From an uncultured bacterium (lineage in GTDB: Bacteria > Arandabacterota > Arandabacteria > JAGLYR01): a stretch of DNA of 64,000 nucleotides. Below are positions 18,878-48,545 of this stretch, piece by piece. Position numbers and translations under genes: made by a program. The notes beneath the pieces were generated by a model. The model was not told the origin of the DNA and ran no database searches. It was given only the letters and a program-made list of their open reading frames with translations. The stretch is from positions 3,594 through 67,593 of the forward strand of contig CAZSXU010000007.1 of assembly GCA_964610505.1 (NCBI GenBank), written 5' to 3'. Every line of letters begins with the position of its first letter. Position 1 is the stretch's first letter.

Positions 18878-19611
18878 GCATGCGCTCGGGTTGTCTTTGG
18901 TTTGTTCTTGTGGTCGCGGTGATCGGCTTGTCCTTCATCGGCGGCGTGGTGGCCTTCAACTTCATCATGGCGTATTCGGTGCGTCATGGCGAGGAGATCA
19001 CGGTCCCGCAGCTCAAGGGGTTGGCTTTCGACAAGGCCGAGTGCGTTGCCAAGGGCGCGAAGTTACGCCTTCGAAAAGAGGGGGAGCGCTTCAGCGCGAC
19101 CGTGCCGCCCGGCTTCGTTCTGGAGCAAAACCCGCGGGCCGCGCGGCGGGTGAAAGAAGGGCGGAGGATTTCCGTCATCGTGAGCGGGGGAACCGAAACC
19201 GTGGTGGTGCCGGAACTCGTGGGCCGGCCGGCCAGGCAGGCCGTGGTTCTTCTGGACGGAGCAGGACTGGAACTGGGGACGACGGCCGAGAGCCCTTCGC
19301 GTCGGGTGGAAGGAGGGGCCGTGATCGCGTGCAGTCCCGCTGCGGGGGCGGCGCTGGAGCGGGGAAGCCGGGTGGATCTGGTCGTGAGTCTGGCACCGGC
19401 TCCGATTCGGTTCATGATGCCCAATCTGGCGGGAATCGAAGCGAACCGGGCCCGCAAGTACCTGGAAGGACTGGGAACCGTGGTGCTCCGTTCCAGAGAG
19501 TATGGTCCTCGAGGGAGGAGCGGGCCCTGGAGAGTGGTCAGCCAGAGACCCACCTTCGGGCACATGGTGACCGAGGGGGATACGGTGAATCTGGTCGTGG
19601 GCGTGCAATAG
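18874..19611 (+). CDS. PASTA-domain membrane protein (N-terminal TM helix plus three PASTA repeats, no kinase domain)
   Basis: TM segment CLWFVLVVAVIGLSFIGGVVAF is followed by repeated PASTA-like units. The ATG overlaps the rsmB stop (ATGA). Confidence 0.75.
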   Translation: MSMRSGCLWFVLVVAVIGLSFIGGVVAFNFIMAYSVRHGEEITVPQLKGLAFDKAECVAKGAKLRLRKEGERFSATVPPGFVLEQNPRAARRVKEGRRISVIVSGGTETVVVPELVGRPARQAVVLLDGAGLELGTTAESPSRRVEGGAVIACSPAAGAALERGSRVDLVVSLAPAPIRFMMPNLAGIEANRARKYLEGLGTVVLRSREYGPRGRSGPWRVVSQRPTFGHMVTEGDTVNLVVGVQ

Positions 19612-19643
19612 GCAAAGCGGGAGACCTGAAAGGGGAGGGTGCC

Positions 19644-20315
19644 GTGATCGTACCGTCGTTGTTGTCGGCTGACTTTTCCCGACTCGAGTTGAGTCTCCGG
19701 GCCGTGGAGCGGACGGGCGTGGAGATGATCTCGCTGGACGTGATGGACGGGCATTTCGTTCCCAATCTGACGTTTGGCCCTCTTATCGTCTCGGCGGTTC
19801 GCAAACTGACGCACCTGCTCATTGAAAATCATCTGATGGTCGATGACCCGGTCCGTTACATCCCGGAGTTTGCCAAAGCGGGGGCCGACTATCTGACGTT
19901 TCACGCCGAAGCGGCTGAAGACGTGGGAGAGGCCGTCGACGCAGTGACGGCCGCGGGGAGTAAGGCGGGTGTTGCCTTGAGGCCCCAGACCGGGTTGGAA
20001 ACCGTCGAGGCTGTACTGGATCGGGTGGACCTGCTGGTGCTGATGACGGTCAACCCCGGGTTCGGGGGGCAGGAATTCATCGAGGACGTTCTACCGAAGA
20101 TCGAGAGAGCCGATGCGCTCAGAAACGAGAAGGGGCATCGTTACCTGATCATGATCGACGGAGGGATCAACGAACGCACGGTTCCTCTGGTGGTCTCGAG
20201 AGGAGCGGACCTTCTGGTGGCCGGATCGGCGGTGTTCGGAACCGGCGACATCGAGGCGGCCGTGGGCCGGCTCTCGGCGGCGGAAGAGGCCGCAAAGACG
20301 GCTGGACGGGGATAA
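19644..20315 (+). CDS. rpe: Ribulose-phosphate 3-epimerase
   Basis: SLLSADF...DVMDGHFVPN...MTVNPGFGGQ motifs. GTG start at 19644. The upstream part of ORF 18891 overlaps the PASTA gene in another frame and is not coding. Confidence 0.85.
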   Translation: MIVPSLLSADFSRLELSLRAVERTGVEMISLDVMDGHFVPNLTFGPLIVSAVRKLTHLLIENHLMVDDPVRYIPEFAKAGADYLTFHAEAAEDVGEAVDAVTAAGSKAGVALRPQTGLETVEAVLDRVDLLVLMTVNPGFGGQEFIEDVLPKIERADALRNEKGHRYLIMIDGGINERTVPLVVSRGADLLVAGSAVFGTGDIEAAVGRLSAAEEAAKTAGRG

Positions 20316-41526: not shown

Positions 41527-41667
41527 CACCCCGAACCGCCGCGCACCCCTGTTTCGGCCCGATTTCTCCCCGCACACCCCATTCCGGGGTGATCATCGCT
41601 TTCGACCTCTGCCTGTGGGACTTCCCAACGGAACATCATCGCACGCATCCCGGGCCCTTGAATTGTC

Positions 41668-41696
41668 TTGACATGCACACGGCCCGGGACATATTG
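41668..41696 (+). promoter_or_regulatory. Candidate promoter for the BMC operon, with a downstream 8-bp inverted repeat (TGTGTGAA ... TTCACACA at 41717-41759)
   Basis: TTGACA, 16-17 nt spacer, CATATT. AT-rich patch in an otherwise GC-rich region. The inverted repeat may be an operator. Confidence 0.35.
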
Positions 41697-41774
41697 TGAA
41701 ATCCTGATATTGATTTTGTGTGAACCCGTATCACTCAGTCGCACATAGAGTTTCACACACGCGGGGAATCGAGA

Positions 41775-43178
41775 ATGACGGAGGCTCTCAACGTGCACCG
41801 TGTGGCCATCGGCGCCGATCATGGCGGTTTTCAACTCAAGGAGCAGCTGAAGGCGTATCTCAACTCCAAAGGGTATGGGCTTGAGGACTGCGGGACCTTC
41901 AGCGAGGAAGCGGTCGACTACCCGAAGATTGCCGCGGCCGTCGCCCGGCTGGTGGCCGAAGGGCGTTCGGAGCGCGGCATCATCATCGACGGCGCGGGGA
42001 TCGGTTCCTCCATGGTGGCCAACAAGGTGCCCGGCGTCCGGGCGGCCCTTTGCTATGATGTTTCCTCCGCGACGAACGCCCGAGAGCACAACGACGCCAA
42101 TGTTCTGACCCTGGGCGCACGAATGATCGGGATCGGCCTGGCCCAGCAGATCGTGGATGTTTTCCTGACGACCGACTGTGTGGAGGATCGCCACCGGCGC
42201 CGGGTAGCCATGATTGGGGAGGTCGAGAGCGGCCGTCCTCTGCCCGCCGCACCGGCAACTCCGACGGCGGAAGCGGGCGCCGGAGTTTCTGAGGGGGATC
42301 TGGATCGCATTGCCCGGGAAGTGGCCGCCATGCTCTCCACGGGGGCAGGCCTGTCTGCGGAATCAAAGGAGACCATTTGCGGGGAACTCGTCTGCGGTCT
42401 GTGCGCAGACTGCATCCAGAGGAATCCCGAAGCCGTTCGCGATCTGATCAACGATACGGGTGCCGACCGCATCAGCCTGGGTCCCGGCGGCGAGGGCGTT
42501 CCTAAGGATCTGGCCAAGTACATCGACCACACGCATCTCAAGCCGGATGCCACGGCTGAGCAAATCCGCAAGCTGTGTCGGGAGGCGGCCGAGTACGGAT
42601 TCGCCGCGGTTTGCGTCAATCCGAACTGGGTTCCCCTCTGCCGGGAGGAGCTGGCGGGAACCGGCGTGGCGGTTTGCACGGTGGTCGGGTTTCCGCTAGG
42701 CGCGCACCAACCGGAGGTCAAAGCCCTGGAAGCCCGGCGGGCGATTCGCGAGGGGGCCCGGGAAATCGATATGGTGATCAACATCGGGGCCCTGAAGGGT
42801 GGAGATCATGCCCTTGTCGAGAGGGACATTCGAACGGTGGCCGACGCGTGCCATGAAGGACGGGCGGTTCTCAAGGTAATTATCGAGACGGCCCTTCTCA
42901 CGGACGAGGAAAAGGTCCTGGCGTGCCGGCTGGCGAAAAAGGCCCGTGCCGACTACGTCAAGACCTCGACCGGATTCGCCGGCGCCGGCGCAACCGCACA
43001 CGACGTGTCGCTCATGAGCGGAGCCGTCAGGGGAACCAAGATGGGGGTGAAGGCCGCAGGAGGTATTGGTTCCGCGGCGGACGCCGAGAAGATGATCCAG
43101 GCGGGCGCGACGCGGATCGGCGCCAGCGCGGGAGTGAAGATCGTCAAGGAGTACAAGCAAGTCACGGTTTCCGAGTGA
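41775..43178 (+). CDS. Fusion protein: ribose-5-phosphate isomerase B (RpiB/LacAB) + linker + deoxyribose-phosphate aldolase (DeoC)
   Basis: N-terminal half [14 protein letters not shown]...[10 protein letters not shown] (RpiB). C-terminal half [13 protein letters not shown]...GFPLGA...KVIIET (DeoC with a Schiff-base Lys). The linker carries an amphipathic helix and a [12 protein letters not shown] motif. Confidence 0.85.
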
Positions 43179-43200
43179 ACGAACAGGTAGGGGAGAGCCC

Positions 43201-43821
43201 ATGGACCTGCGATCGTATGTGTTCCTCGACAGCATTCAACCCCAGTACGCCGCTTTCCTGGGAACGGTGGCGCAAGGATTCCTGCCCATCGCGAACATGG
43301 CGTCGCTCTACGTCGAGATCTCGCCGGGAATCGAGATCAATCGAATCACGGATATTGCGCTGAAATCCACGCGAGTGACGCCGGGGATGCAAGTGGTGGA
43401 GCGCCTCTACGGGTTGCTGGAAATTCACTCGGAATCGCAGGCGGACGTCCGGGAGGCCGGCCGGGCGATTCTTCAGGCGTTGAATCTCAAGGAAGAGGAT
43501 CGCTGGAAACCCAGGATTCTCTCCAGTCAAGTGGTCCGCCGGATGGATGATCATCAGACCCAGCTGATCAACCGGATGCGGCACGGGAATATGATCGTTC
43601 CCGGGGAGACGATGTACGTGATGGAAGTCGAGCCGGCCGCCTATGCCGCTCTGGCGGCGAATGAGGCGGAGAAGGCGGCCGAGATCAACATCCTTGAGGT
43701 TCGCGCGTTCGGCAGTTTCGGCCGCGTGTACCTCGGCGGTGAGGAGCGGGACATCGACGTCGGCTGGCGTGCGGCGGTCGGCGCAATCGAATCGGTAACC
43801 GGAAGGGTCGTGAAGAAGTAG
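43201..43821 (+). CDS. BMC shell protein, tandem-BMC-domain (BMC-T)
   Basis: Two BMC-like halves. The second is canonical ([39 protein letters not shown]). Confidence 0.7.
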
Positions 43822-43872
43822 AAGAGCAACGGGGCACGTTGAGAATCCACTATTCAAGGGAGGCAGTCGGCA

Positions 43873-44187
43873 ATGGCAGAAGCCCTTGGCATGATCGAGA
43901 CCCATAGCTATGCCGCCATGGTCGAAGCGGCGGACGCGATGGTGAAGGCGGCGAAGGTGGAGCTCGTTCATTATGAGAAGATCGGCGGGGGATACGTGAC
44001 GGCCATTATCCGAGGCGACGTGGCGGCCGTGAAGGCGGCCTGTGACGCCGGCCAGGCCAGTGCGTCCCGTGTCGGCGAGGTTGTCGCCGTTCATGTGATC
44101 GCGCGTCCGCATACGAACATCGATCTGGTGCTTCCGCTGGGCCGCCTCGACCAGGTTCGGGCGGAACTGAAGAAGACGACGAAGTAG
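43873..44187 (+). CDS. BMC shell hexamer protein (BMC-H, PduA/EutM-like)
   Basis: [29 protein letters not shown]...[19 protein letters not shown] is canonical BMC-H. Confidence 0.9.
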
Positions 44188-44281
44188 GCCGGTCGCGCCT
44201 GCTGGAGAAGACCGGCCGCGGGGGGAGAGGCGCGTTGAATTGCGCTGCGTCTCACCGACCCCGGAAGGTTGAGGAGTTGCC

Positions 44282-44569
44282 ATGGTTCTGGCCAAAGTGG
44301 TCGGCACGGTTGTCGCCTCGCGCAAAGAGAAGAGCACGGAAGGACTCCGCTTCATGGTCCTCGAGCAGATCGACCTCGACGGCAAGCCCTCGGGAGGGTT
44401 TGTCGTAGCGGCCGACGCCGTGGGGTCGGGTGTGGGTGAAATGGTGCTCTATGCCTCGGGAAGCTCGGCGCGGCAGACTGTAGCGACGGACAAACGTCCG
44501 TGCGACGCGGTGATCATGGCCATTGTCGACCAGTGGGAAGTCGGCGGCAAGACAAAGTACAAGAAGTAG
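44282..44569 (+). CDS. BMC vertex pentamer (BMC-P, EutN/CcmL/PduN family)
   Basis: [13 protein letters not shown]...[19 protein letters not shown] motif. Confidence 0.85.
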
Positions 44570-44738
44570 CCCGGACAATCCATGGAACCCTGCTGCGAGC
44601 AAGACAGGACGAGCCTGAACTGCGTTTCGGAAGCGATTTCGATCCTCGACGGAGCCGGGCTACGCAATCGGCGAAGTCCTATGTAGGCTTGGGGAGCTTC
44701 TGCCATAGGTAGTGTTGGGGTTTGGCGTTGGAGAATTC

Positions 44739-46184
44739 ATGTCTGTGACGTTGTCGGAAGGGCAGATTCGGGAGATCGCACGGCGGGTTGTGGAGTCGCT
44801 GGGAAGATCCGGTGCGCCGCCGACCGCCGCCGGGGCGGCCGCACCCGCGGGAGCCCTGGCCGAAGGCGTGTTTGCGGATGTCGATTCGGCCGCGCGCGCG
44901 GCCGCCGAAGCCCAGCGTTCGCTGGTGGCGATGACCATGTCCCAGCGGGACAAGATCGTTTCCCGAATTCGGCAGGTGATGCTGGATCATGCCGAGGCCC
45001 TGGCGGGTGAGGCTCTGGCGGAGACGGGGCTTGGTCGCCTGGACGACAAAACGGGAAAGAACCGGCTCGTTGCGGAGAAAACTCCGGGGACGGAAGCTCT
45101 TTATCCGACGGCCCGAAGCGGAGATCGAGGGCTGTCGTTGTTCGAACCGGCTCCCTACGGCGTCATCGGGGTCATCACGCCCGTAACCAATCCTACGTCG
45201 ACCATCATCTGCAACACGATCGGAATGGTGGCGGCGGGCAACGGCGTGGTCTTGAACGTCCATCCCTCGGCTAAGACGGTCTCGATCCGAACGGTGAACC
45301 TCATCAACCAGGCCATCCGGGAGGCCGGTGGGCCTTCCAACGTGGTTACCACTCTGGCCGAGCCGACGATCGAATCGGCCCAAGAGCTGATGAAGCATCC
45401 GGGCATCCGTCTCCTGGTCGTGACCGGCGGAGCCGCCGTCGTCAAGGTAGCGATGCAGAGCGGCAAGCGGGCGATCTGCGCGGGCCCCGGGAATCCTCCC
45501 GTGGTCGTGGATGAGACGGCGGATCCGGACCAGGCGGGCCGCGACATTGTCCGAGGCGCATCCTTCGACAACAACATCGTGTGTGTCTGCGAGAAAGAGA
45601 TTCTCGCCGTGGACTCCGTGGCCGACGCCCTCCTGAAATCCATAGGACGTCAGGGAGGGGTTGTCCTCACGGGGGTCCAGCTTCGCCAGATCGAGCGGGT
45701 GCTCTTCCCGCACGACAGGACGCCCGGAAGGCCGGCGGCGGTTGAGAAATCACTCATCGGCAGGGACGCGGGCGTCATCCTCTCCAAGATCGGAGTGAAC
45801 GCGGGGCCGCAAGTCCGGCTGGCCGTGGTGGAAACCGACGCCCAGCATCCTCTGGTGTGGACGGAACAGATGCTTCCCGTCATGCCTCTGGTGAGGGTGA
45901 GAAGCGCCGATGAGGGGATCGACCTGGCTCGGCGCGTCGAGCAGGGCATGAGGCACACGGCCGTGATGCACTCGAAGAATCTGGATCATCTGAGCCGGAT
46001 GGCCAAGGTGATGGACTGCAGCATCTTCGTGAAGAACGGCCCCGCAGTGGCGGGATTGGGTTTCGGGGGTGAGGGCTACTCATCCTTCTCCATCGCGTCG
46101 CCGACGGGAGAGGGGTTGACGGGCCCGAGGCAGTTCTCCAGGGAACGGCGGTGCGTTCTGGTCGATCACTTCAGGATCGTGTGA
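44739..46184 (+). CDS. Acylating aldehyde dehydrogenase (PduP/EutE-like) with an N-terminal encapsulation-peptide-like helix
   Basis: Aldehyde dehydrogenase family core. N-terminus MSVTLSEGQIREIARRVVESL followed by an Ala/Pro-rich linker. GGAG RBS before the ATG at 44739. Confidence 0.9.
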   Translation: MSVTLSEGQIREIARRVVESLGRSGAPPTAAGAAAPAGALAEGVFADVDSAARAAAEAQRSLVAMTMSQRDKIVSRIRQVMLDHAEALAGEALAETGLGRLDDKTGKNRLVAEKTPGTEALYPTARSGDRGLSLFEPAPYGVIGVITPVTNPTSTIICNTIGMVAAGNGVVLNVHPSAKTVSIRTVNLINQAIREAGGPSNVVTTLAEPTIESAQELMKHPGIRLLVVTGGAAVVKVAMQSGKRAICAGPGNPPVVVDETADPDQAGRDIVRGASFDNNIVCVCEKEILAVDSVADALLKSIGRQGGVVLTGVQLRQIERVLFPHDRTPGRPAAVEKSLIGRDAGVILSKIGVNAGPQVRLAVVETDAQHPLVWTEQMLPVMPLVRVRSADEGIDLARRVEQGMRHTAVMHSKNLDHLSRMAKVMDCSIFVKNGPAVAGLGFGGEGYSSFSIASPTGEGLTGPRQFSRERRCVLVDHFRIV

Positions 46185-46807
46185 TGGAACATCCAGCGCT
46201 TGCACTCGTGGAACTGAACAGTATCGCCGCCGGGGCCAGAACGGCGGACGCGATGGCCAAGAAGGCCCCCGTCGAGATCCTGCGTGTGGGGACAATTCAT
46301 CGCGGCAAGTACTTGATCCTGATCGAGGGTAGCGTAGGGGCGGTTGAGGAGTCCTTCGCCGAGGGTCTTCGGGTGGGGGGGGAATCCGTCGTCGATAAGG
46401 TCTTTCTGCCGGAGGTCGATCGGACGGTTCGGGACGCGCTTCTGGGGAATCGACAGACGGGCACGTACGATGCCTTGGGAGTGGTCGAGACCGCCAACGT
46501 GGCGGCCGTGATCGAAGCGGCCGATGGGGGGGTTAAGGGCGCCGACGTCAAGGTGATGGAAGTACGCCTGGGCGATGGGATGGGAGGCAAGGGTCTCGTT
46601 TTCTTCACGGGCAAGGTTCACGATGTAGAGGCCGCCGTGGACATCGCCGTCGAGCGAATCCGGGATCGGCAGACCTGGGTCCAGCAAACGGTCATCCCGA
46701 TTCTTCACGAAGACATGGCGCGGCAGGTGGCGGAATCGACTCGCTTCGGGCCGCGGCGGAGTTCGGGCGGCAGAGCAGCGAGACGGCGGGGCAGCGGAGC
46801 CGATTGA
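46184..46807 (+). CDS. BMC shell protein, tandem BMC domains (PduT-like BMC-T) with an Arg-rich C-terminal tail
   Basis: Two BMC domains (ALALVELNSIAAG..., ALGVVETANVAAVIEAAD...). The start overlaps the AldDH stop (TGATG). Confidence 0.8.
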   Translation: MEHPALALVELNSIAAGARTADAMAKKAPVEILRVGTIHRGKYLILIEGSVGAVEESFAEGLRVGGESVVDKVFLPEVDRTVRDALLGNRQTGTYDALGVVETANVAAVIEAADGGVKGADVKVMEVRLGDGMGGKGLVFFTGKVHDVEAAVDIAVERIRDRQTWVQQTVIPILHEDMARQVAESTRFGPRRSSGGRAARRRGSGAD

Positions 46808-46880
46808 GCGTGTGCACACTCTGCGGTCCCAGGATTGCCGCTCCGCGCTTCTGACGGATGGAACCGGAAGGTGGAATCGA

Positions 46881-47168
46881 ATGCGTCTGGGCCGGGTTAT
46901 TGGGACCGTCGTTCCCTGCGTTGTCTACGAAGGGCTAACGGGTGTTCCGATGCTCATCGTCACGCCGCTGGATAAACGGGGAAAGCCCAAGGGAACCCCC
47001 TTTGTGGCGGCGGATGCAACGCGCATGGCGGGCCCCGGTGAACTCATCTATTACGAAGCTTCTCGAGAAGCCGCCCTGGCGCTCGACCCGTGGTTCGTCC
47101 CTGTGGATCACGCGATCGTGGGCATCGTTGACGGTGTCGAGCGAGACGGCGTGGAGATCAAACCGTGA
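46881..47168 (+). CDS. BMC vertex pentamer (BMC-P), second copy
   Basis: MRLGRVIGTVV...LIVTPLD EutN/CcmL family. ATG at 46881. Confidence 0.8.
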   Translation: MRLGRVIGTVVPCVVYEGLTGVPMLIVTPLDKRGKPKGTPFVAADATRMAGPGELIYYEASREAALALDPWFVPVDHAIVGIVDGVERDGVEIKP

Positions 47169-47437
47169 TCCTCGGGATTGTCAAGGGGACCGTCTACTCG
47201 ACGATCAACCATCCCTTCTACGACAGCCGGCGACTGCTCCTGGTGGATCTCGTCAACCCGAACGGGAGCGAGACGGGAGGCTACCTCATCGCCATCGACT
47301 CGGTCGATGCAGGCGTAGGGGACCGCGTTCTCATGATCGACGAGGGGAATTCCGCTCGGCAGATCGTGGACGATCCGCAGGCTCCACTTCGGTCCATCAT
47401 CATCGGCATTGTGGACGACGTGCAGGTGTCGGCATGA
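47165..47437 (+). CDS. BMC vertex pentamer (BMC-P), third copy
   Basis: MILGIVKGTVYST...GGYLIAIDSVDAGVGDRVL. GTG start overlaps the previous stop. Confidence 0.8.
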   Translation: MILGIVKGTVYSTINHPFYDSRRLLLVDLVNPNGSETGGYLIAIDSVDAGVGDRVLMIDEGNSARQIVDDPQAPLRSIIIGIVDDVQVSA

Positions 47438-47598
47438 GCCTCGTTCGTTGGAACACCAGGGGCGCAGCCGCAGATTGCACAGACCTCACAGCCAAGGGGA
47501 TCTTTCCGGGATGCACTCCCGTGCGTCCCGGGAAGACCCGGTAGCCTTCGCACGTTCTGTGGAATCTGTGTCATCTGTGGTGGGGGGTTCGCCTTCTC

Positions 47599-48303
47599 AT
47601 GAATGCCGCTTGGCACCTCAGGAAAGAGATCGTCGAGTTCGGGCGCAGGGTCTATGAGAAGAATCTCGTGGCTGCGACGGACGGGAACATCAGTGTCCGC
47701 ATCCTGGGGGATCGGCTCCTCATTACGCCGTCGGGATTCTGTCTGGGGGAGCTCAAACCTGAAGACCTGGTCTATGCCGACTTTGAAGGGAGGACACTCT
47801 CCGGGCGAAACGCCCCCTCCAGCGAGCTCCCAATGCACATTGCGGCGTACGAGGAAAGACCCGACGTTCACGCCATCATCCACGCCCACCCACCGGTGAC
47901 CACGGCGTTCACCGTGGCCGGCTACAATCTGGCTCAATGCGTGATTCCGGAGGTTGTCCTGATCTTCGGATGTATCCCCACCACAGAGTATGCAACGCCG
48001 TCATCGGAAGAAGGCCCTCGAGTCATCCGGTCTCTCATCCGGAAGCACGACGCGCTGATTCTCGATCGGCATGGATCCCTTACGGCGGGTTGCAGCTTGC
48101 GGGAGGCGTATCACAAGCTGGAGAAGGTGGAACACTGTGCACAGGTGACCTTGGCCGCTCGCCAGCTGGGTAACGTCAAGACTCTGACGGCGGATCAGGT
48201 AGAGCGTCTCGAAGAGGTCCGGAAGAAGATGGGGCTCGGAAACGGGTCGTCCCTCTGCAATCTCTGCGGAACGTGCGGAAAGTCCGGCCCGGACGATTCC
48301 TGA
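47599..48303 (+). CDS. Class II aldolase/adducin family protein (fuculose-/rhamnulose-phosphate aldolase-like)
   Basis: ATDGNISVR...HAHPP Zn-binding motifs. Confidence 0.85.
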   Translation: MNAAWHLRKEIVEFGRRVYEKNLVAATDGNISVRILGDRLLITPSGFCLGELKPEDLVYADFEGRTLSGRNAPSSELPMHIAAYEERPDVHAIIHAHPPVTTAFTVAGYNLAQCVIPEVVLIFGCIPTTEYATPSSEEGPRVIRSLIRKHDALILDRHGSLTAGCSLREAYHKLEKVEHCAQVTLAARQLGNVKTLTADQVERLEEVRKKMGLGNGSSLCNLCGTCGKSGPDDS

Positions 48304-48361
48304 ACCCGCGTTACTGAAGAGGGCCGGGGACCCCACGGGGGCCCGGGCGACAAAGAAAACG

Positions 48362-48394
48362 GAGCGGCCCTTGCGGGCCGCTCTCGGTGTTTTA
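48362..48394. terminator. Bidirectional intrinsic terminator (9-bp GC stem GAGCGGCCC/GGGCCGCTC flanked by A-run and T-run) after the BMC operon
   Basis: AAAGAAAAC GGAGCGGCCC ttgc GGGCCGCTC TCGGTGTTTT. Confidence 0.6.
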
Positions 48395-48398
48395 GGGC

Positions 48399-48545
48399 CC
48401 CGCAGTGCCGTGAGTCAACCTCGCGAAAATCCGCGCGTCAAGGGAGTTGAAGTCGGCCCGCGAAACCGATCACGAACACTGCAGGGAAACGGGGCGAACC
48501 GTATTCAGTTGTGTCTCTGCAGGGACGCAATCCGTATGCCAGCCG
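48399..48545. repeat. Conserved 145-nt module, copy C (divergent, with indels relative to copies A and B)
   Basis: Shares GCGCGTCAAGG..TTGAAGTCGGCCC.CGAA...CACGAACACTGCAGGGAA...GCGAACC.TATTCA.TTGTG...CAGGG.CGC...TGCCAG with 51125-51270 and 61222-61365. Confidence 0.8.

What the first reader, a model, noticed from the sequence alone, without database searches (positions are those of the whole stretch)
41640..48394. Compact sugar-phosphate-type bacterial microcompartment locus: RpiB-DeoC fusion + acylating AldDH + 1 BMC-H, 2 BMC-T, 3 BMC-P + class II aldolase
Ten co-directional, tightly packed or overlapping genes between a candidate promoter at 41668 and a bidirectional terminator at 48362. 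The enzyme pair RpiB + DeoC (deoxyribose-phosphate aldolase) together with an acylating aldehyde dehydrogenase is the signature of the bioinformatically defined but experimentally uncharacterised sugar-phosphate-utilising (SPU) BMC class. The inferred logic is that DeoC splits deoxyribose-5-P into glyceraldehyde-3-P and acetaldehyde, the acetaldehyde is trapped in the shell, and AldDH converts it to acetyl-CoA. The shell inventory is unusual: a single BMC-H gene, two different tandem-domain BMC-T genes (one with an Arg-rich tail) and three BMC-P vertex genes. This is the most plausible undescribed or poorly described system in the window.
Basis: partly seen in the sequence, partly recalled or inferred. 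Interest (0 to 1): 0.8.

Follow-up and report, generated by a model that had tools for sequence, protein, structure and literature searches.

The report
SPU3-type bacterial microcompartment operon
This is an intact nine-gene operon for a protein-shelled bacterial organelle of the already catalogued SPU3 (sugar-phosphate-utilising) type, predicted to split deoxyribose-5-phosphate and oxidise the trapped acetaldehyde; apart from an extra class II aldolase and some unremarked cysteine motifs it is an ordinary member of a known class.

Summary
Nine co-directional genes (not ten) lie at 41775-48303 between a promoter-like site (41668) and a hairpin terminator (48361-48384). They are an RpiB-DeoC fusion, a CcmP-like BMC-T(dp), a BMC-H, a BMC-P, an acylating AldDH, a PduT-like BMC-T(s), two more BMC-P and a class II aldolase.

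The SPU classification is right, but the novelty claims are not. The gene set and shell inventory match the published SPU3 definition item by item (Sutter 2021, Suppl. Data 2), including the fusion. SPU enzymes were characterised in vitro in 2024 (Dwyer et al.). The same gene order recurs in dozens of MAGs from many phyla.

The RpiB domain lacks the catalytic Cys and Thr, as reported for all SPU RPIs, which showed negligible isomerase activity. It is more likely a scaffold than a pathway step.

Three points go beyond the catalogue:
- A class II aldolase of a BMC-dedicated clade follows the last BMC-P gene in at least seven lineages.
- A conserved four-Cys cluster sits in the fusion linker, and a CxxCGxC tail sits on the aldolase. 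The BMC papers I searched mention neither.
- No PTAC, PduS or alcohol dehydrogenase occurs anywhere in the 64 kb.

Verdict: new member of a known kind, moderate-to-low interest.

The parts
41668..41697 (+). Sigma-70-like promoter candidate (TTGACA, 16/18 nt, CATATT/TATTGT).
   Evidence: 10 of 12 matches; a second assembly (L082) with a completely different upstream flank becomes identical to the window from 41660 onward, so the promoter-like site travels with the operon.
41775..43178 (+). RpiB-DERA fusion protein (467 aa), the SPU signature enzyme.
   Evidence: PF02502 plus PF01791; deoC TIGR00126 at 279.5 bits (cut-off 117.3) and rpiB TIGR01120 at 157.3 bits (cut-off 138.65); the 120 best homologous clusters all carry both domains.
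41799..42230 (+). RpiB-like domain (residues 9-152) with Asp72 and Ala74 in place of the catalytic Cys66 and Thr68 of E. coli RpiB. Probably non-canonical or a scaffold.
   Evidence: five solved RpiBs have iCGTGxG where the window has iDGAGiG. Asp in 49 of 51 and Asn in 2 of 51 homologues, with the His99 equivalent invariant. Dwyer 2024 reports the same substitution in all SPU RPIs and negligible activity.
42291..42338 (+). Internal amphipathic helix (residues 173-188, ...[14 protein letters not shown]), a putative encapsulation peptide between the two domains.
   Evidence: AF2 predicts helix 173-188; hydrophobic moment (muH) 0.63, above the 95th percentile (0.58) of the 15-residue windows of this locus's AldDH, the reference distribution; the published description of the SPU3 fusion notes an internal EP-like element.
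42378..42413 (+). Four-Cys cluster C202-x4-C207-x2-C210-x2-C213 in the BMC-specific DERA extension. Candidate metal site.
   Evidence: Cys conserved in 49, 44, 38 and 40 of 51 homologues; not modelled by AF2 (pLDDT below 50); not mentioned by Dwyer 2024.
42507..43148 (+). DERA (DeoC) TIM-barrel domain (residues 245-458). D332, K367 and K396 lie in the EIDMV / LKVIIE / VKTSTG motifs.
   Evidence: best PDB hits are all DERAs, E=3e-80. D332, K367 and K396 are invariant in 51 sequences. Their mapping to E. coli D102/K167/K201 rests on my own knowledge of the motifs and.
43201..43821 (+). BMC-T(dp), CcmP-like permuted tandem-domain gated-pore shell protein (206 aa).
   Evidence: CcmP E=8e-84, H. 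ochraceum T2/T3 E=1e-70 to 1e-73, CsoS1D E=3e-51. The Glu-Arg pair (VERLYG) aligns with CcmP IERLYG. NF053796 339.7 bits against a cut-off of 340. PF27545 CsoS1D_N.
43873..44187 (+). BMC-H hexamer shell protein (104 aa).
   Evidence: PF00936, 101 bits.
44282..44569 (+). BMC-P pentamer (vertex) protein 1 (95 aa).
   Evidence: PF03319, 95 bits.
44739..46184 (+). CoA-acylating aldehyde dehydrogenase (481 aa from the ATG at 44739; an upstream GTG at 44712 is possible).
   Evidence: NF011927, 636 bits (cut-off 403). BMC-associated PduP-type AldDH 5JFL at E=1e-132, with the catalytic Cys in FDNNIVCVCEKE aligned to FDNNLPCVAEKE; gene call at 44739.
44763..44807 (+). N-terminal encapsulation peptide of AldDH (QIREIARRVVESLGR), followed by an Ala/Pro-rich linker.
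   Evidence: muH 0.78, the highest of any 15-residue window in the protein. Its sequence resembles the fusion's internal helix (IREIARRVVESL against [12 protein letters not shown]). SPU3 AldDH carries an N-terminal EP.
46184..46807 (+). BMC-T(s), PduT-like tandem-domain shell protein (207 aa). It has no cysteine at all and a lineage-specific Arg-rich tail.
   Evidence: PduT E=7e-33. Sequence: no Cys; the tail is absent in L085-L087.
46881..47168 (+). BMC-P pentamer protein 2 (95 aa from the ATG at 46881).
   Evidence: PF03319, 64 bits over residues 24-107 of the longer ORF; gene call.
47165..47437 (+). BMC-P pentamer protein 3 (90 aa). It overlaps the previous gene by 4 nt.
47599..48303 (+). 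Class II (FucA/AraD-family) aldolase (234 aa) of a BMC-dedicated clade. Substrate unknown.
   Evidence: PF00596, 164 bits; no NCBIfam equivalog cut-off reached. E76, H95, H97 and H158 invariant; homologues looked up in ten further loci (L085-L090, L092, L094-L096) all lie next to BMC shell genes.
48256..48276 (+). C-terminal C220-x2-C223-G-x-C226 motif of the aldolase. No amphipathic EP follows it here.
   Evidence: the motif occurs in 79 of the 120 closest clusters, and 35 of those add an acidic amphipathic helix; the window tail has muH 0.36, against 0.72 for P0043.
48361..48384 (.). GC-rich hairpin with T-runs on both strands, a bidirectional intrinsic terminator candidate.

Best explanation
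The locus is a single operon encoding an SPU3-type metabolosome, a catabolic bacterial microcompartment.

Shown by sequence:
- It encodes one BMC-H, one CcmP-like gated BMC-T(dp), one PduT-like BMC-T(s) without Fe-S ligands and three BMC-P. This is enough for a closed icosahedral-type shell.
- It also encodes three cargo candidates.

Inferred from the family and from published SPU work:
1. Deoxyribose-5-phosphate from DNA or nucleoside breakdown enters through the BMC-H pore or the gated BMC-T(dp) pore.
2. The DERA domain of the fusion cleaves it to glyceraldehyde-3-phosphate, which leaves the shell, and acetaldehyde, which is retained.
3. The AldDH converts acetaldehyde plus CoA plus NAD+ to acetyl-CoA plus NADH.
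4. Cargo is recruited by two closely similar amphipathic helices: the AldDH N-terminus and the helix between the RpiB and DERA domains.
5. The RpiB domain has lost the catalytic Cys and Thr. It most likely acts as a structural partner of DERA, since the two form a 1:1 complex when they are separate proteins, rather than as a ribose-5-phosphate isomerase.
6. No PTAC, alcohol dehydrogenase or PduS is encoded. Acetyl-CoA and NADH must therefore exchange across the shell, plausibly through the large gated BMC-T(dp) pore.
7. The terminal class II aldolase belongs to a BMC-dedicated clade. It is probably a second DHAP-forming, aldehyde-generating enzyme that feeds the same AldDH. Its substrate is unknown.
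For: - Domain content.
- Item-by-item match to the SPU3 definition in Sutter 2021 Suppl. Data 2: AldDH plus pfam01791 plus pfam02502 fused with pfam02502 N-terminal; EP on the AldDH N-terminus and between the fused domains; one BMC-H; a BMC-P triplet; a CcmP-like T(dp); a T(s) without PduS and without pore Cys.
- The order fusion-Tdp-H-P-AldDH-Ts-P-P is conserved in about 25 MAGs of Woeseiaceae, Thermoanaerobaculia, Lentisphaerae, Chloroflexota, Acidimicrobiia, Marinimicrobia and Calditrichia. With the aldolase appended, it is conserved in Eisenbacteria, Phycisphaerales and others.
- DERA catalytic residues are invariant. SPU6 DERA is active on dR5P in vitro and binds RPI 1:1.
- RpiB Cys66 to Asp and Thr68 to Ala.
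- Amphipathic helices.
- PTAC, PduS and AlcDH are absent from the whole 64 kb. Dwyer et al. note that SPU loci lacking PTAC typically carry a T(dp).
Against: - No experiment exists for any SPU3 locus: no shell imaging, no in vivo substrate, no proof of encapsulation.
- Shell colour-clade assignment (BMC Caller HMMs) could not be run, so the subtype call rests on matching the published description.
- Cofactor recycling is unexplained.
- The published SPU3 definition does not include a class II aldolase.
- The window aldolase lacks a recognisable encapsulation peptide, so whether it is cargo is open.
- The RpiB domain still passes the rpiB equivalog cut-off. It may retain an isomerase activity on another sugar phosphate.
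Confidence: 0.8

Rival explanations
1. Dual-signature or aldolase-led organelle. On this view the class II aldolase is a co-equal or principal aldehyde generator. It would cleave a ketose-1-phosphate (for example L-fuculose-1-P, 5-deoxyribulose-1-P or ribulose-1-P) to DHAP plus an aldehyde that the same AldDH oxidises. DERA would be a second entry point.
For: - In all ten further loci (L085-L090, L092, L094-L096) where a homologue's neighbourhood was looked up, the aldolase lies next to BMC shell genes.
- On the same shell/AldDH chassis, L090 and L096 carry the aldolase, plus PduS, but no DERA. There the aldolase is the only candidate signature enzyme.
- Zn ligands, the catalytic Glu and the phosphate-binding residues are invariant.
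- The closest structures include DrdA (5-deoxyribulose-1-P aldolase, which yields acetaldehyde) and FucA.
Against: - The window aldolase has no amphipathic EP, unlike the 35 of 120 homologues that do and unlike those in DERA-less loci.
- None of the 20 SPU3-order loci examined has the aldolase within 5 kb downstream, so it is dispensable for the core.
- No equivalog model is reached (best are OtnC 133 bits against a cut-off of 250 and FucA 121 against 264). Identity to YgbL, DrdA and FucA is uniformly 27-31%, so the substrate cannot be assigned.
Confidence: 0.35
2. The RpiB domain is a working ribose-5-phosphate isomerase that acts in sequence with DERA inside the shell.
For: - The domain passes the TIGR01120 rpiB equivalog and the PRK05571 cut-offs.
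- The His99 equivalent and most substrate-binding positions are invariant.
- M. tuberculosis RpiB works with Glu in place of Cys (cited).
Against: - Cys66 is replaced by Asp and Thr68 by Ala.
- SPU6 RPI with the same Asp showed negligible R5P isomerase activity.
- No enzyme in the locus links R5P or Ru5P to dR5P. Dwyer et al. point out that a transketolase would be needed to link R5P to GAP.
Confidence: 0.15
3. The locus is an HO-type (Haliangium ochraceum-like) or SPU5-type BMC of unknown function rather than SPU3.
For: - The shell set (H, PduT-like Ts, CcmP-like Tdp, P triplet) and an AldDH with an N-terminal EP are shared with HO.
- The Tdp matches HO T2/T3 at E=1e-70 to 1e-73.
- HO loci and their satellites carry two BMC-P next to a pfam00596 aldolase. 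SPU5 often has the aldolase.
Against: - HO main loci lack pfam01791 and pfam02502.
- SPU5 lacks pfam02502 and pairs its T(s) with PduS and a pore Cys.
- The window has the fused RPI-DERA, no PduS and no Cys in the T(s).
Confidence: 0.08
4. The locus is a carboxysome-related or degenerate shell cluster without a catabolic function.
For: The T(dp) scores 339.7 bits on the beta-carboxysome CcmP model, whose cut-off is 340.
Against: - No RuBisCO, CcmM/N, CsoS2 or carbonic anhydrase occurs in 64 kb.
- All nine ORFs are intact and conserved at 50-91% identity across phyla.
- CcmP-like T(dp) is a stated SPU2/SPU3 feature.
Confidence: 0.01

Closest known systems
SPU3 bacterial microcompartment loci (Sutter et al. 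2021, Nat Commun 12:3809, Suppl. Data 2; Dwyer et al. 2024, Commun Biol 7:1562)
   Same: - Enzymes: AldDH plus pfam02502-pfam01791 fusion, with RPI N-terminal.
- EPs on the AldDH N-terminus and between the fused domains.
- Shell: one BMC-H, a BMC-P triplet, a CcmP-like BMC-T(dp), and a BMC-T(s) without PduS or pore Cys.
- No PTAC.
- The same gene order occurs in about 25 fetched loci.
   Different: - It carries an additional pfam00596 class II aldolase as the last gene. This is not part of the SPU3 description; Dwyer mentions it only as 'low occurrence in some types'.
- The host lineage is closest to Candidatus Eisenbacteria (fusion 82% identical to P0122; the nine locus proteins 72-91% identical to L085), a phylum not on the published SPU3 list.
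SPU6 BMC of Chloroflexi, the only SPU type with purified enzymes (Dwyer et al. 2024)
   Same: - A DERA with a BMC-specific N-terminal extension (a helix plus a short structured element).
- An RPI with Cys66 replaced by Asp.
- DERA and RPI are physically associated: a 1:1 complex there, a fusion here.
- A BMC-P triplet and a T(dp).
   Different: - The SPU6 AldDH has a C-terminal EP and lies on another AldDH branch (about 28% identity to the window AldDH).
- Its T(dp) comes from a different major clade.
- It has no T(s), and its gene order differs.
Haliangium ochraceum (HO) BMC, the structural model shell (PDB 5V74, 5V76, 5DIH)
   Same: - A very similar shell parts list: H, PduT-like T1, CcmP-like T2/T3 and three P.
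- An AldDH with an N-terminal EP.
- A two-BMC-P-plus-class-II-aldolase module.
   Different: The HO main locus has no DERA or RPI, and its function is unknown.
PVM / PVM-like fucose-rhamnose BMC (class II aldolase signature; Erbilgin et al. 2014 as summarised in Axen 2014)
   Same: A PF00596 aldolase plus an acylating AldDH inside a BMC locus, with an aldehyde as the sequestered intermediate.
   Different: - The PVM locus also has an acetate kinase, a lactate/malate-dehydrogenase-type core enzyme and a DeoR regulator, and its aldolase has a C-terminal EP. None of these is present here.
- PVM has no DERA or RPI.
Beta-carboxysome shell protein CcmP (PDB 4HT5, 5LSR)
   Same: The 206-aa T(dp) aligns end to end with CcmP (E=8e-84), including the Glu-Arg gating pair.
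   Different: The context is catabolic (AldDH and DERA), not carbon-fixing. The score is 0.3 bits under the CcmP equivalog cut-off.
DrdA (5-deoxyribulose-1-phosphate aldolase, PDB 6BTD), FucA (1FUA) and YgbL/OtnC (6VOP/6VOQ), the solved relatives of the aldolase
   Same: The fold is the same (TM 0.77-0.80), and the Zn-binding His triad, the catalytic Glu and the phosphate site are present.
   Different: - Identity is only 27-31%.
- By my by-eye alignment to the E. coli FucA sequence recalled from memory (not a tool alignment), the position of FucA Tyr113 is a nearly invariant Cys114 (its conservation is).
- The tail carries CxxCGxC instead of the FucA Tyr209 tail.
- No equivalog threshold is met.

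Membership tests
Bacterial microcompartment locus (general) | Genes for BMC-domain (PF00936) hexamer or trimer proteins and PF03319 pentamer proteins are clustered with enzymes. | tested here: met
   PF00936 hits on three proteins (one below the cut-off, rescued by the CcmP match) and PF03319 on three proteins, all within 4.3 kb.
SPU (sugar-phosphate-utilising) BMC | A pfam01791 DeoC/DERA signature enzyme with catalytic Asp/Lys/Lys and a BMC-specific N-terminal extension. | tested here: met
   TIGR00126, 279.5 bits (cut-off 117.3). D332, K367 and K396 invariant; about 95 residues of extension (helix 173-188 plus the Cys cluster) precede the barrel.
SPU BMC | A pfam02502 RpiB-type protein with Asp replacing the catalytic Cys66. 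| tested here: met
   One search gives the published criterion.
SPU BMC | A CoA-acylating aldehyde dehydrogenase (PF00171) with an intact catalytic Cys in the locus. The curation rule of Dwyer 2024 is AldDH plus DERA or RPI. | tested here: met
   The curation rule is quoted.
SPU BMC | A BMC-P triplet, with one member from each of three colour clades. | tested here: inconclusive
   Three divergent BMC-P genes are present. Each finds its own ortholog in related loci. Colour-clade HMMs (BMC Caller) were not available, so clade membership was not tested.
SPU3 subtype | pfam02502 and pfam01791 are adjacent or fused, with pfam02502 N-terminal, and an EP-like element lies between them. | tested here: met
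   Definition.
SPU3 subtype | A BMC-T(dp) of the CcmP-like major clade. | tested here: met
   No tree was built; similarity to CcmP (284 bits) exceeds that to CsoS1D (178 bits).
SPU3 subtype | A BMC-T(s) without a pore cysteine and without a co-occurring PduS. No PTAC. | tested here: met
   The T(s) sequence has no Cys. No Complex1_51K/SLBB (PduS) or PF06130 hit was found among the 49 ORFs scanned across the 64 kb.
SPU3 subtype | The AldDH has an N-terminal encapsulation peptide. | tested here: met
   muH 0.78 at residues 9-23, followed by an Ala/Pro linker; the catalytic domain starts at about residue 42.
SPU BMC (function) | It forms a closed shell enclosing DERA and AldDH and catabolises deoxyribose-5-phosphate in vivo. 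| not testable with these tools
   This needs expression with EM, proteomics of purified shells, and growth or induction assays. It has not been shown for any SPU type in vivo.
PVM / PVM-like BMC | A class II aldolase with a C-terminal encapsulation peptide as the sole signature enzyme. | tested here: not met
   The aldolase is present but has no amphipathic C-terminal helix, and DERA is also present.
PVM / PVM-like BMC | The ancillary and core genes named for the PVM locus: acetate kinase, a lactate/malate-dehydrogenase-type NAD-recycling enzyme and a DeoR regulator. PduL is a member from my own knowledge, not. | tested here: not met
   None was found in 64 kb. Features are listed.
HO-type BMC | The main locus has AldDH and H/T/P shell genes but no pfam01791 or pfam02502. 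| tested here: not met
   The fusion gene is the first gene of the operon. Definition.
Beta-carboxysome | RuBisCO, CcmM/CcmN and carbonic anhydrase occur with CcmK/L/O/P. | tested here: not met
   Only a CcmP-like protein is present, 0.3 bits under the cut-off. No RuBisCO, CcmM or CcmN was found in the window.
L-fuculose-1-phosphate aldolase (FucA) and other named PF00596 equivalogs | A score above the NCBIfam equivalog cut-off. | tested here: not met
   best scores are OtnC 133 (cut-off 250), L-Ru5P 4-epimerase 124 (251), FucA 121 (264), Ru1P aldolase 108 (300) and MtnB 74 (137).

The most novel reading that the evidence does not exclude
The Eisenbacteria/Phycisphaerae-type SPU3 variant may be a two-aldolase organelle. 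In this reading the BMC-dedicated class II aldolase and DERA both feed one aldehyde dehydrogenase. The conserved four-Cys cluster in the DERA extension and the ferredoxin-like CxxCGxC tail of the aldolase would be metal (Zn or Fe-S) sites. They might tether cargo, including the EP-less aldolase, or provide redox control or electron exit in a shell that lacks PduS, PTAC and alcohol dehydrogenase. Neither motif is mentioned in the SPU and encapsulation-peptide papers I searched by text, nor in the Axen and Sutter passages I read.
Probability: 0.2. Interest if true: 0.55.

Novelty: new member of a known kind. Interest (0 to 1): 0.3.

Why it matters
As a classification result it matters little. 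SPU is one of the most prevalent catalogued BMC types, and this locus fits the SPU3 description exactly.

Its practical value lies in three things:
1. It is a compact, complete, self-contained nine-gene example. It has its own promoter and terminator and needs no satellite loci. That makes it a convenient candidate for the first heterologous reconstitution of an SPU3 shell with cargo.
2. The RPI-DERA fusion and the appended class II aldolase turn out to be much more widespread than the 12-20 fusions and the 'low occurrence' reported. This affects how the SPU pathway should be drawn.
3. It sharpens open questions about metabolosomes that lack PTAC, AlcDH and PduS. How are cofactors recycled? 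What is the catalytically disabled RpiB domain for? Do the conserved Cys motifs on both aldolases bind metal?

Tried and rejected
- AlphaFold2 on the fusion with a 51-sequence alignment, to see whether the four Cys converge. Residues 189-242 came out with pLDDT below 50, so nothing can be said. The aldolase tail behaved the same way, with pLDDT falling from 58 to 42.
- Pfam scan of the isolated linker and tail peptides at E up to 10. There was no ferredoxin or zinc-finger family, only noise-level DUF1677 and RING-like hits.
- Metagenome scan with the single aldolase sequence. It returned only six loci, too few for statistics. I replaced it with individual context look-ups.
- Attempt to assign the aldolase substrate by NCBIfam, PDB sequence search and Foldseek. 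All relatives were equidistant at about 27-31% identity, so no assignment was possible.
- Search for a riboswitch or leader RNA in and around the operon. Nothing was found above E=1 on the + strand, and there was no gathering-score hit anywhere in the window.
- Search for a tenth gene in the 161-169-nt gaps. Only unsupported 34-36-aa ORFs were found.
- Test of whether the aldolase CxxCGxC motif strictly co-varies with the DERA Cys cluster. It does not. Judging by shared contig lengths, some pairs combine a four-Cys DERA with a one-Cys aldolase tail. One Phycisphaerales genome has lost both motifs.
- The carboxysome, PVM and HO readings were considered and rejected on gene content (see the membership table).
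- The Arg-rich tail of the BMC-T(s) was considered as a functional feature. I rejected it because it is lineage-specific.

Full report
**Observation.**
The + strand between 41775 and 48303 carries nine ORFs in one direction. Pfam assigns them as follows:
- 41775-43178: RpiB (PF02502, 181 bits) fused to DeoC (PF01791, 76 bits).
- 43201-43821: a weak BMC hit, 21.7 bits, below the gathering score.
- 43873-44187: BMC-H, 101 bits.
- 44282-44569: EutN/CcmL, 95 bits.
- 44712/44739-46184: aldehyde dehydrogenase, 131 bits.
- 46184-46807: a two-domain BMC protein, 117 bits.
- 46881-47168 and 47165-47437: two more EutN/CcmL proteins, 64 and 77 bits.
- 47599-48303: class II aldolase (PF00596, 164 bits).

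The weak second ORF is not a failure of the shell hypothesis. It aligns end to end with the permuted tandem-BMC protein CcmP (E=8e-84), with H. ochraceum T2/T3 (E about 1e-70) and with CsoS1D (E=3e-51). It scores 339.7 bits on the NCBIfam CcmP model, whose cut-off is 340.

The sixth gene is PduT-like (E=7e-33) and contains no cysteine.

A promoter-like site at 41668 and a 10-bp GC-rich hairpin at 48361-48384 with T-runs on both strands bracket the cluster. Gaps run from -4 to 169 nt, and purine-rich ribosome-binding sites (RBS) precede the starts. The gaps hide no credible tenth gene. There are therefore nine genes, not ten.

The flanks are unrelated housekeeping or miscellaneous genes. Base composition shows no island signature.

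**What it is.**
The supplementary type descriptions of the BMC catalogue (Sutter et al. 2021) define SPU3 as follows:
- An AldDH plus pfam01791 and pfam02502, fused in some loci with pfam02502 N-terminal.
- EPs on the AldDH N-terminus and between the fused domains.
- A single BMC-H.
- A BMC-P triplet.
- A CcmP-like BMC-T(dp).
- A BMC-T(s) with no PduS partner and no pore cysteine.

The window locus meets every item I could test.

Dwyer, Sutter and Kerfeld (2024) curated 206 SPU loci. They described the SPU3 RPI-DERA chimera. They showed that an SPU6 DERA is active on deoxyribose-5-phosphate and that it forms a 1:1 complex with RPI. The class is therefore neither undescribed nor wholly uncharacterised.

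**Comparative evidence.**
A genome-collection scan with the fusion protein returned 587 relatives. A tblastn map of the 80 retained loci shows the order (RPI-DERA)-Tdp-H-P-AldDH-Ts-P-P in about 25 MAGs. These come from Woeseiaceae, Thermoanaerobaculia, Lentisphaerae, Chloroflexota, Acidimicrobiia, Marinimicrobia, Calditrichia and others. A second, SPU6-like order occurs in Anaerolineae.

In the protein database the 120 best clusters (57-82% identity) all carry both Pfam domains. The fusion is therefore much commoner than the 12-20 cases published.

The closest relative is from Candidatus Eisenbacteria. Its fusion protein is 82% identical (P0122), and the nine locus proteins of L085 are 72-91% identical. 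The flanks are partly syntenic. The exact locus occurs on nine metagenome contigs.

**Enzymes.**
- *DERA domain.* It passes the deoC equivalog model (279.5 bits, cut-off 117.3). Its best PDB matches are all DERAs. D332, K367 and K396 are invariant in 51 homologues. They sit in the EIDMV / LKVIIE / VKTSTG motifs, which I recognise as those holding E. coli D102, K167 and K201.
- *AldDH.* It is closest to BMC-associated CoA-acylating PduP-type enzymes (5JFL, E=1e-132). Its catalytic Cys is aligned.
- *RpiB domain.* It formally passes the rpiB equivalog cut-off. However, it has iDGAGiG where five solved RpiBs, including the E. coli enzyme, have iCGTGxG. The Asp occurs in 49 of 51 homologues and Asn in the other two. 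Dwyer et al. report this substitution in all SPU RPIs and found negligible R5P isomerase activity. I therefore treat the domain as a structural partner, or as an isomerase of unknown specificity, and not as a demonstrated pathway step.

**Encapsulation signals.**
AldDH residues 9-23 (QIREIARRVVESLGR) have the highest helical hydrophobic moment in that protein (0.78) and are followed by an Ala/Pro-rich linker. The fusion has a similar helix, [13 protein letters not shown], with moment 0.63. AF2 predicts this as helix 173-188. The two peptides resemble each other in sequence, which fits a common recruitment mechanism.

**Mechanism, with shown and inferred steps.**

Shown by sequence: a complete shell parts list, an intact DERA, an intact acylating AldDH, amphipathic EP-like helices and a disabled RpiB catalytic dyad.

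Inferred from family knowledge and the published SPU model:
1. dR5P enters the shell.
2. DERA releases G3P and acetaldehyde.
3. AldDH makes acetyl-CoA and NADH.

No PTAC, PduS, alcohol dehydrogenase or acetate kinase is encoded anywhere in the 64 kb. Cofactor turnover must therefore involve exchange across the shell. The gated T(dp) pore is the published suggestion for PTAC-less SPU loci.

**The class II aldolase.**
This gene is the one component outside the SPU3 definition. None of 20 SPU3-order loci from the genome collection has it within 5 kb downstream. Its homologues nevertheless number 1851 at E<=1e-20.

In all ten further loci (L085-L090, L092, L094-L096) where I looked up a homologue's neighbourhood, it lies next to BMC shell genes:
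- In seven of them, L089 being only a 1.5-kb fragment, it follows the last BMC-P gene of the same operon order. These are Eisenbacteria L085, L086, L087 and L088 (two contigs with the same per-gene identities, probably one lineage), L089, a complete Phycisphaerales genome L094, and L095.
- In two (L090, L096) the same shell/AldDH chassis carries PduS and the aldolase but no DERA.
- In one (L092) it sits in a differently ordered BMC locus.

The aldolase is therefore a BMC-dedicated clade, and it can be the only candidate signature enzyme. Its Zn-binding histidines, catalytic Glu and phosphate-site residues are invariant.

It reaches no named equivalog. It is equidistant, at 27-31% identity, from YgbL/OtnC, from the acetaldehyde-forming 5-deoxyribulose-1-P aldolase DrdA and from FucA. 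The substrate is therefore open.

Dwyer et al. suggest that it makes fructose-1,6-bisphosphate from GAP and DHAP. By my own knowledge, PF00596 enzymes are FucA/RhaD/AraD-type rather than FBP aldolases, so I regard a second aldehyde-releasing cleavage as more likely. That is inference.

**Cysteine motifs.**
Two features are not mentioned in the BMC papers I searched by text or read in part.
- *Fusion linker.* It carries C202-x4-C207-x2-C210-x2-C213. The four Cys are conserved in 49, 44, 38 and 40 of 51 homologues. Four-Cys clusters with other spacings occur in SPU6-type DERA extensions. The consensus reads CxxxxCxxCGxC.
- *Aldolase tail.* The aldolase ends in C220-x2-C223-G-x-C226. The motif is present in 79 of the 120 closest clusters. 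In 35 of those it is followed by an acidic amphipathic helix that looks like a classical EP. The window protein lacks that helix.

Aussignargues et al. (2015) tabulated 5.5% Cys in aldolase linkers but described them as unconserved.

CxxCGxC is the first part of the clostridial ferredoxin [4Fe-4S] motif (my own knowledge). AF2 gave low confidence for both regions and Pfam found nothing. Metal binding is therefore a hypothesis and not a result. Co-variation between the two motifs is imperfect.

**Rivals.**
- An aldolase-led or dual-signature reading remains open (about 0.35).
- A functional RpiB step is unlikely (about 0.15).
- HO or SPU5 membership fails on the presence of the fusion and the absence of PduS and a pore Cys.
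- PVM membership fails on the missing acetate kinase, NAD-recycling dehydrogenase, DeoR regulator and aldolase EP.
- A carboxysome reading fails on gene content.

**Verdict.**
The SPU assignment and the core logic are supported. The claims of unusualness and of being undescribed are not.

This is a new member of a known kind, from a lineage near Eisenbacteria. Its points of residual interest are the appended BMC-dedicated class II aldolase, the conserved Cys motifs and the unexplained cofactor economy. Interest 0.3.

Noticed in passing
window 48393-48490 (- strand), up to the hairpin at 48361-48384: The 530-nt non-coding stretch downstream of the minus-strand formiminotransferase-cyclodeaminase gene holds a long imperfect hairpin. 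It gives a weak 6S RNA hit (32.4 bits against a gathering score of 46.4; E=0.001), and the region folds with a z-score of -2.7. It ends at the same bidirectional terminator that closes the BMC operon. It may be a small RNA gene, but it stays below any curated threshold.
   Followed up: partly
window 41660; L082 1-10000 (JGI 3300029258): In one metagenome assembly the sequence upstream of the operon is replaced by a tyrosine integrase and phage tail/lysis genes. Identity with the window resumes 115 nt before the fusion start codon, just upstream of the TTGACA at 41668. This is either a prophage inserted right at the operon's promoter boundary or a chimeric contig. ARAGORN finds no tRNA gene anywhere in the window.
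   Followed up: partly
L090 5146-10771; L096 3600-9825: The same shell/AldDH chassis (Tdp-H-P-AldDH-PduS-Ts-(P-P)-class II aldolase) exists without any DERA or RpiB gene. The aldolase there is longer (256-274 aa); L096's ends in an amphipathic EP-like helix. L096 is preceded by an RpiR-type (HTH_6 plus SIS) regulator. This suggests modular exchange of signature enzymes on one chassis.
   Followed up: partly
window 47938-47940 (aldolase Cys114): By my by-eye alignment to the E. coli FucA sequence recalled from memory (not a tool alignment), the position of FucA Tyr113, a catalytic residue supplied to the neighbouring subunit, is a nearly invariant Cys in this BMC aldolase clade (conservation). 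Together with the three tail cysteines it could complete a four-ligand site. This could not be tested, because no oligomer model or coordinates were available.
   Followed up: no
It is lineage-specific rather than a conserved feature.
   Followed up: yes
window 44570-44738 and 47438-47598: Two unusually long intergenic gaps (169 and 161 nt) lie inside an otherwise tight operon, before the AldDH gene and before the aldolase gene. Neither contains a terminator-like site or an Rfam match. Internal promoters or processing sites were not examined.
   Followed up: partly
window 18891-20315 (+): A 474-aa ORF has a ribulose-phosphate 3-epimerase domain only in residues 253-449. The N-terminal half has no Pfam match and low GC3 (0.61 for the whole ORF). 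The real gene is probably shorter. It is the only pentose-phosphate enzyme in the window and lies 22 kb from the BMC operon.
   Followed up: no
L017 8775-10594, L020 15402-17229, L073 12726-14509: Some Chloroflexota SPU3-order loci have an extra gene of about 1.8 kb between AldDH and the BMC-T(s). This is the position PduS occupies in L090 and L096. I did not check whether it is PduS.
   Followed up: no
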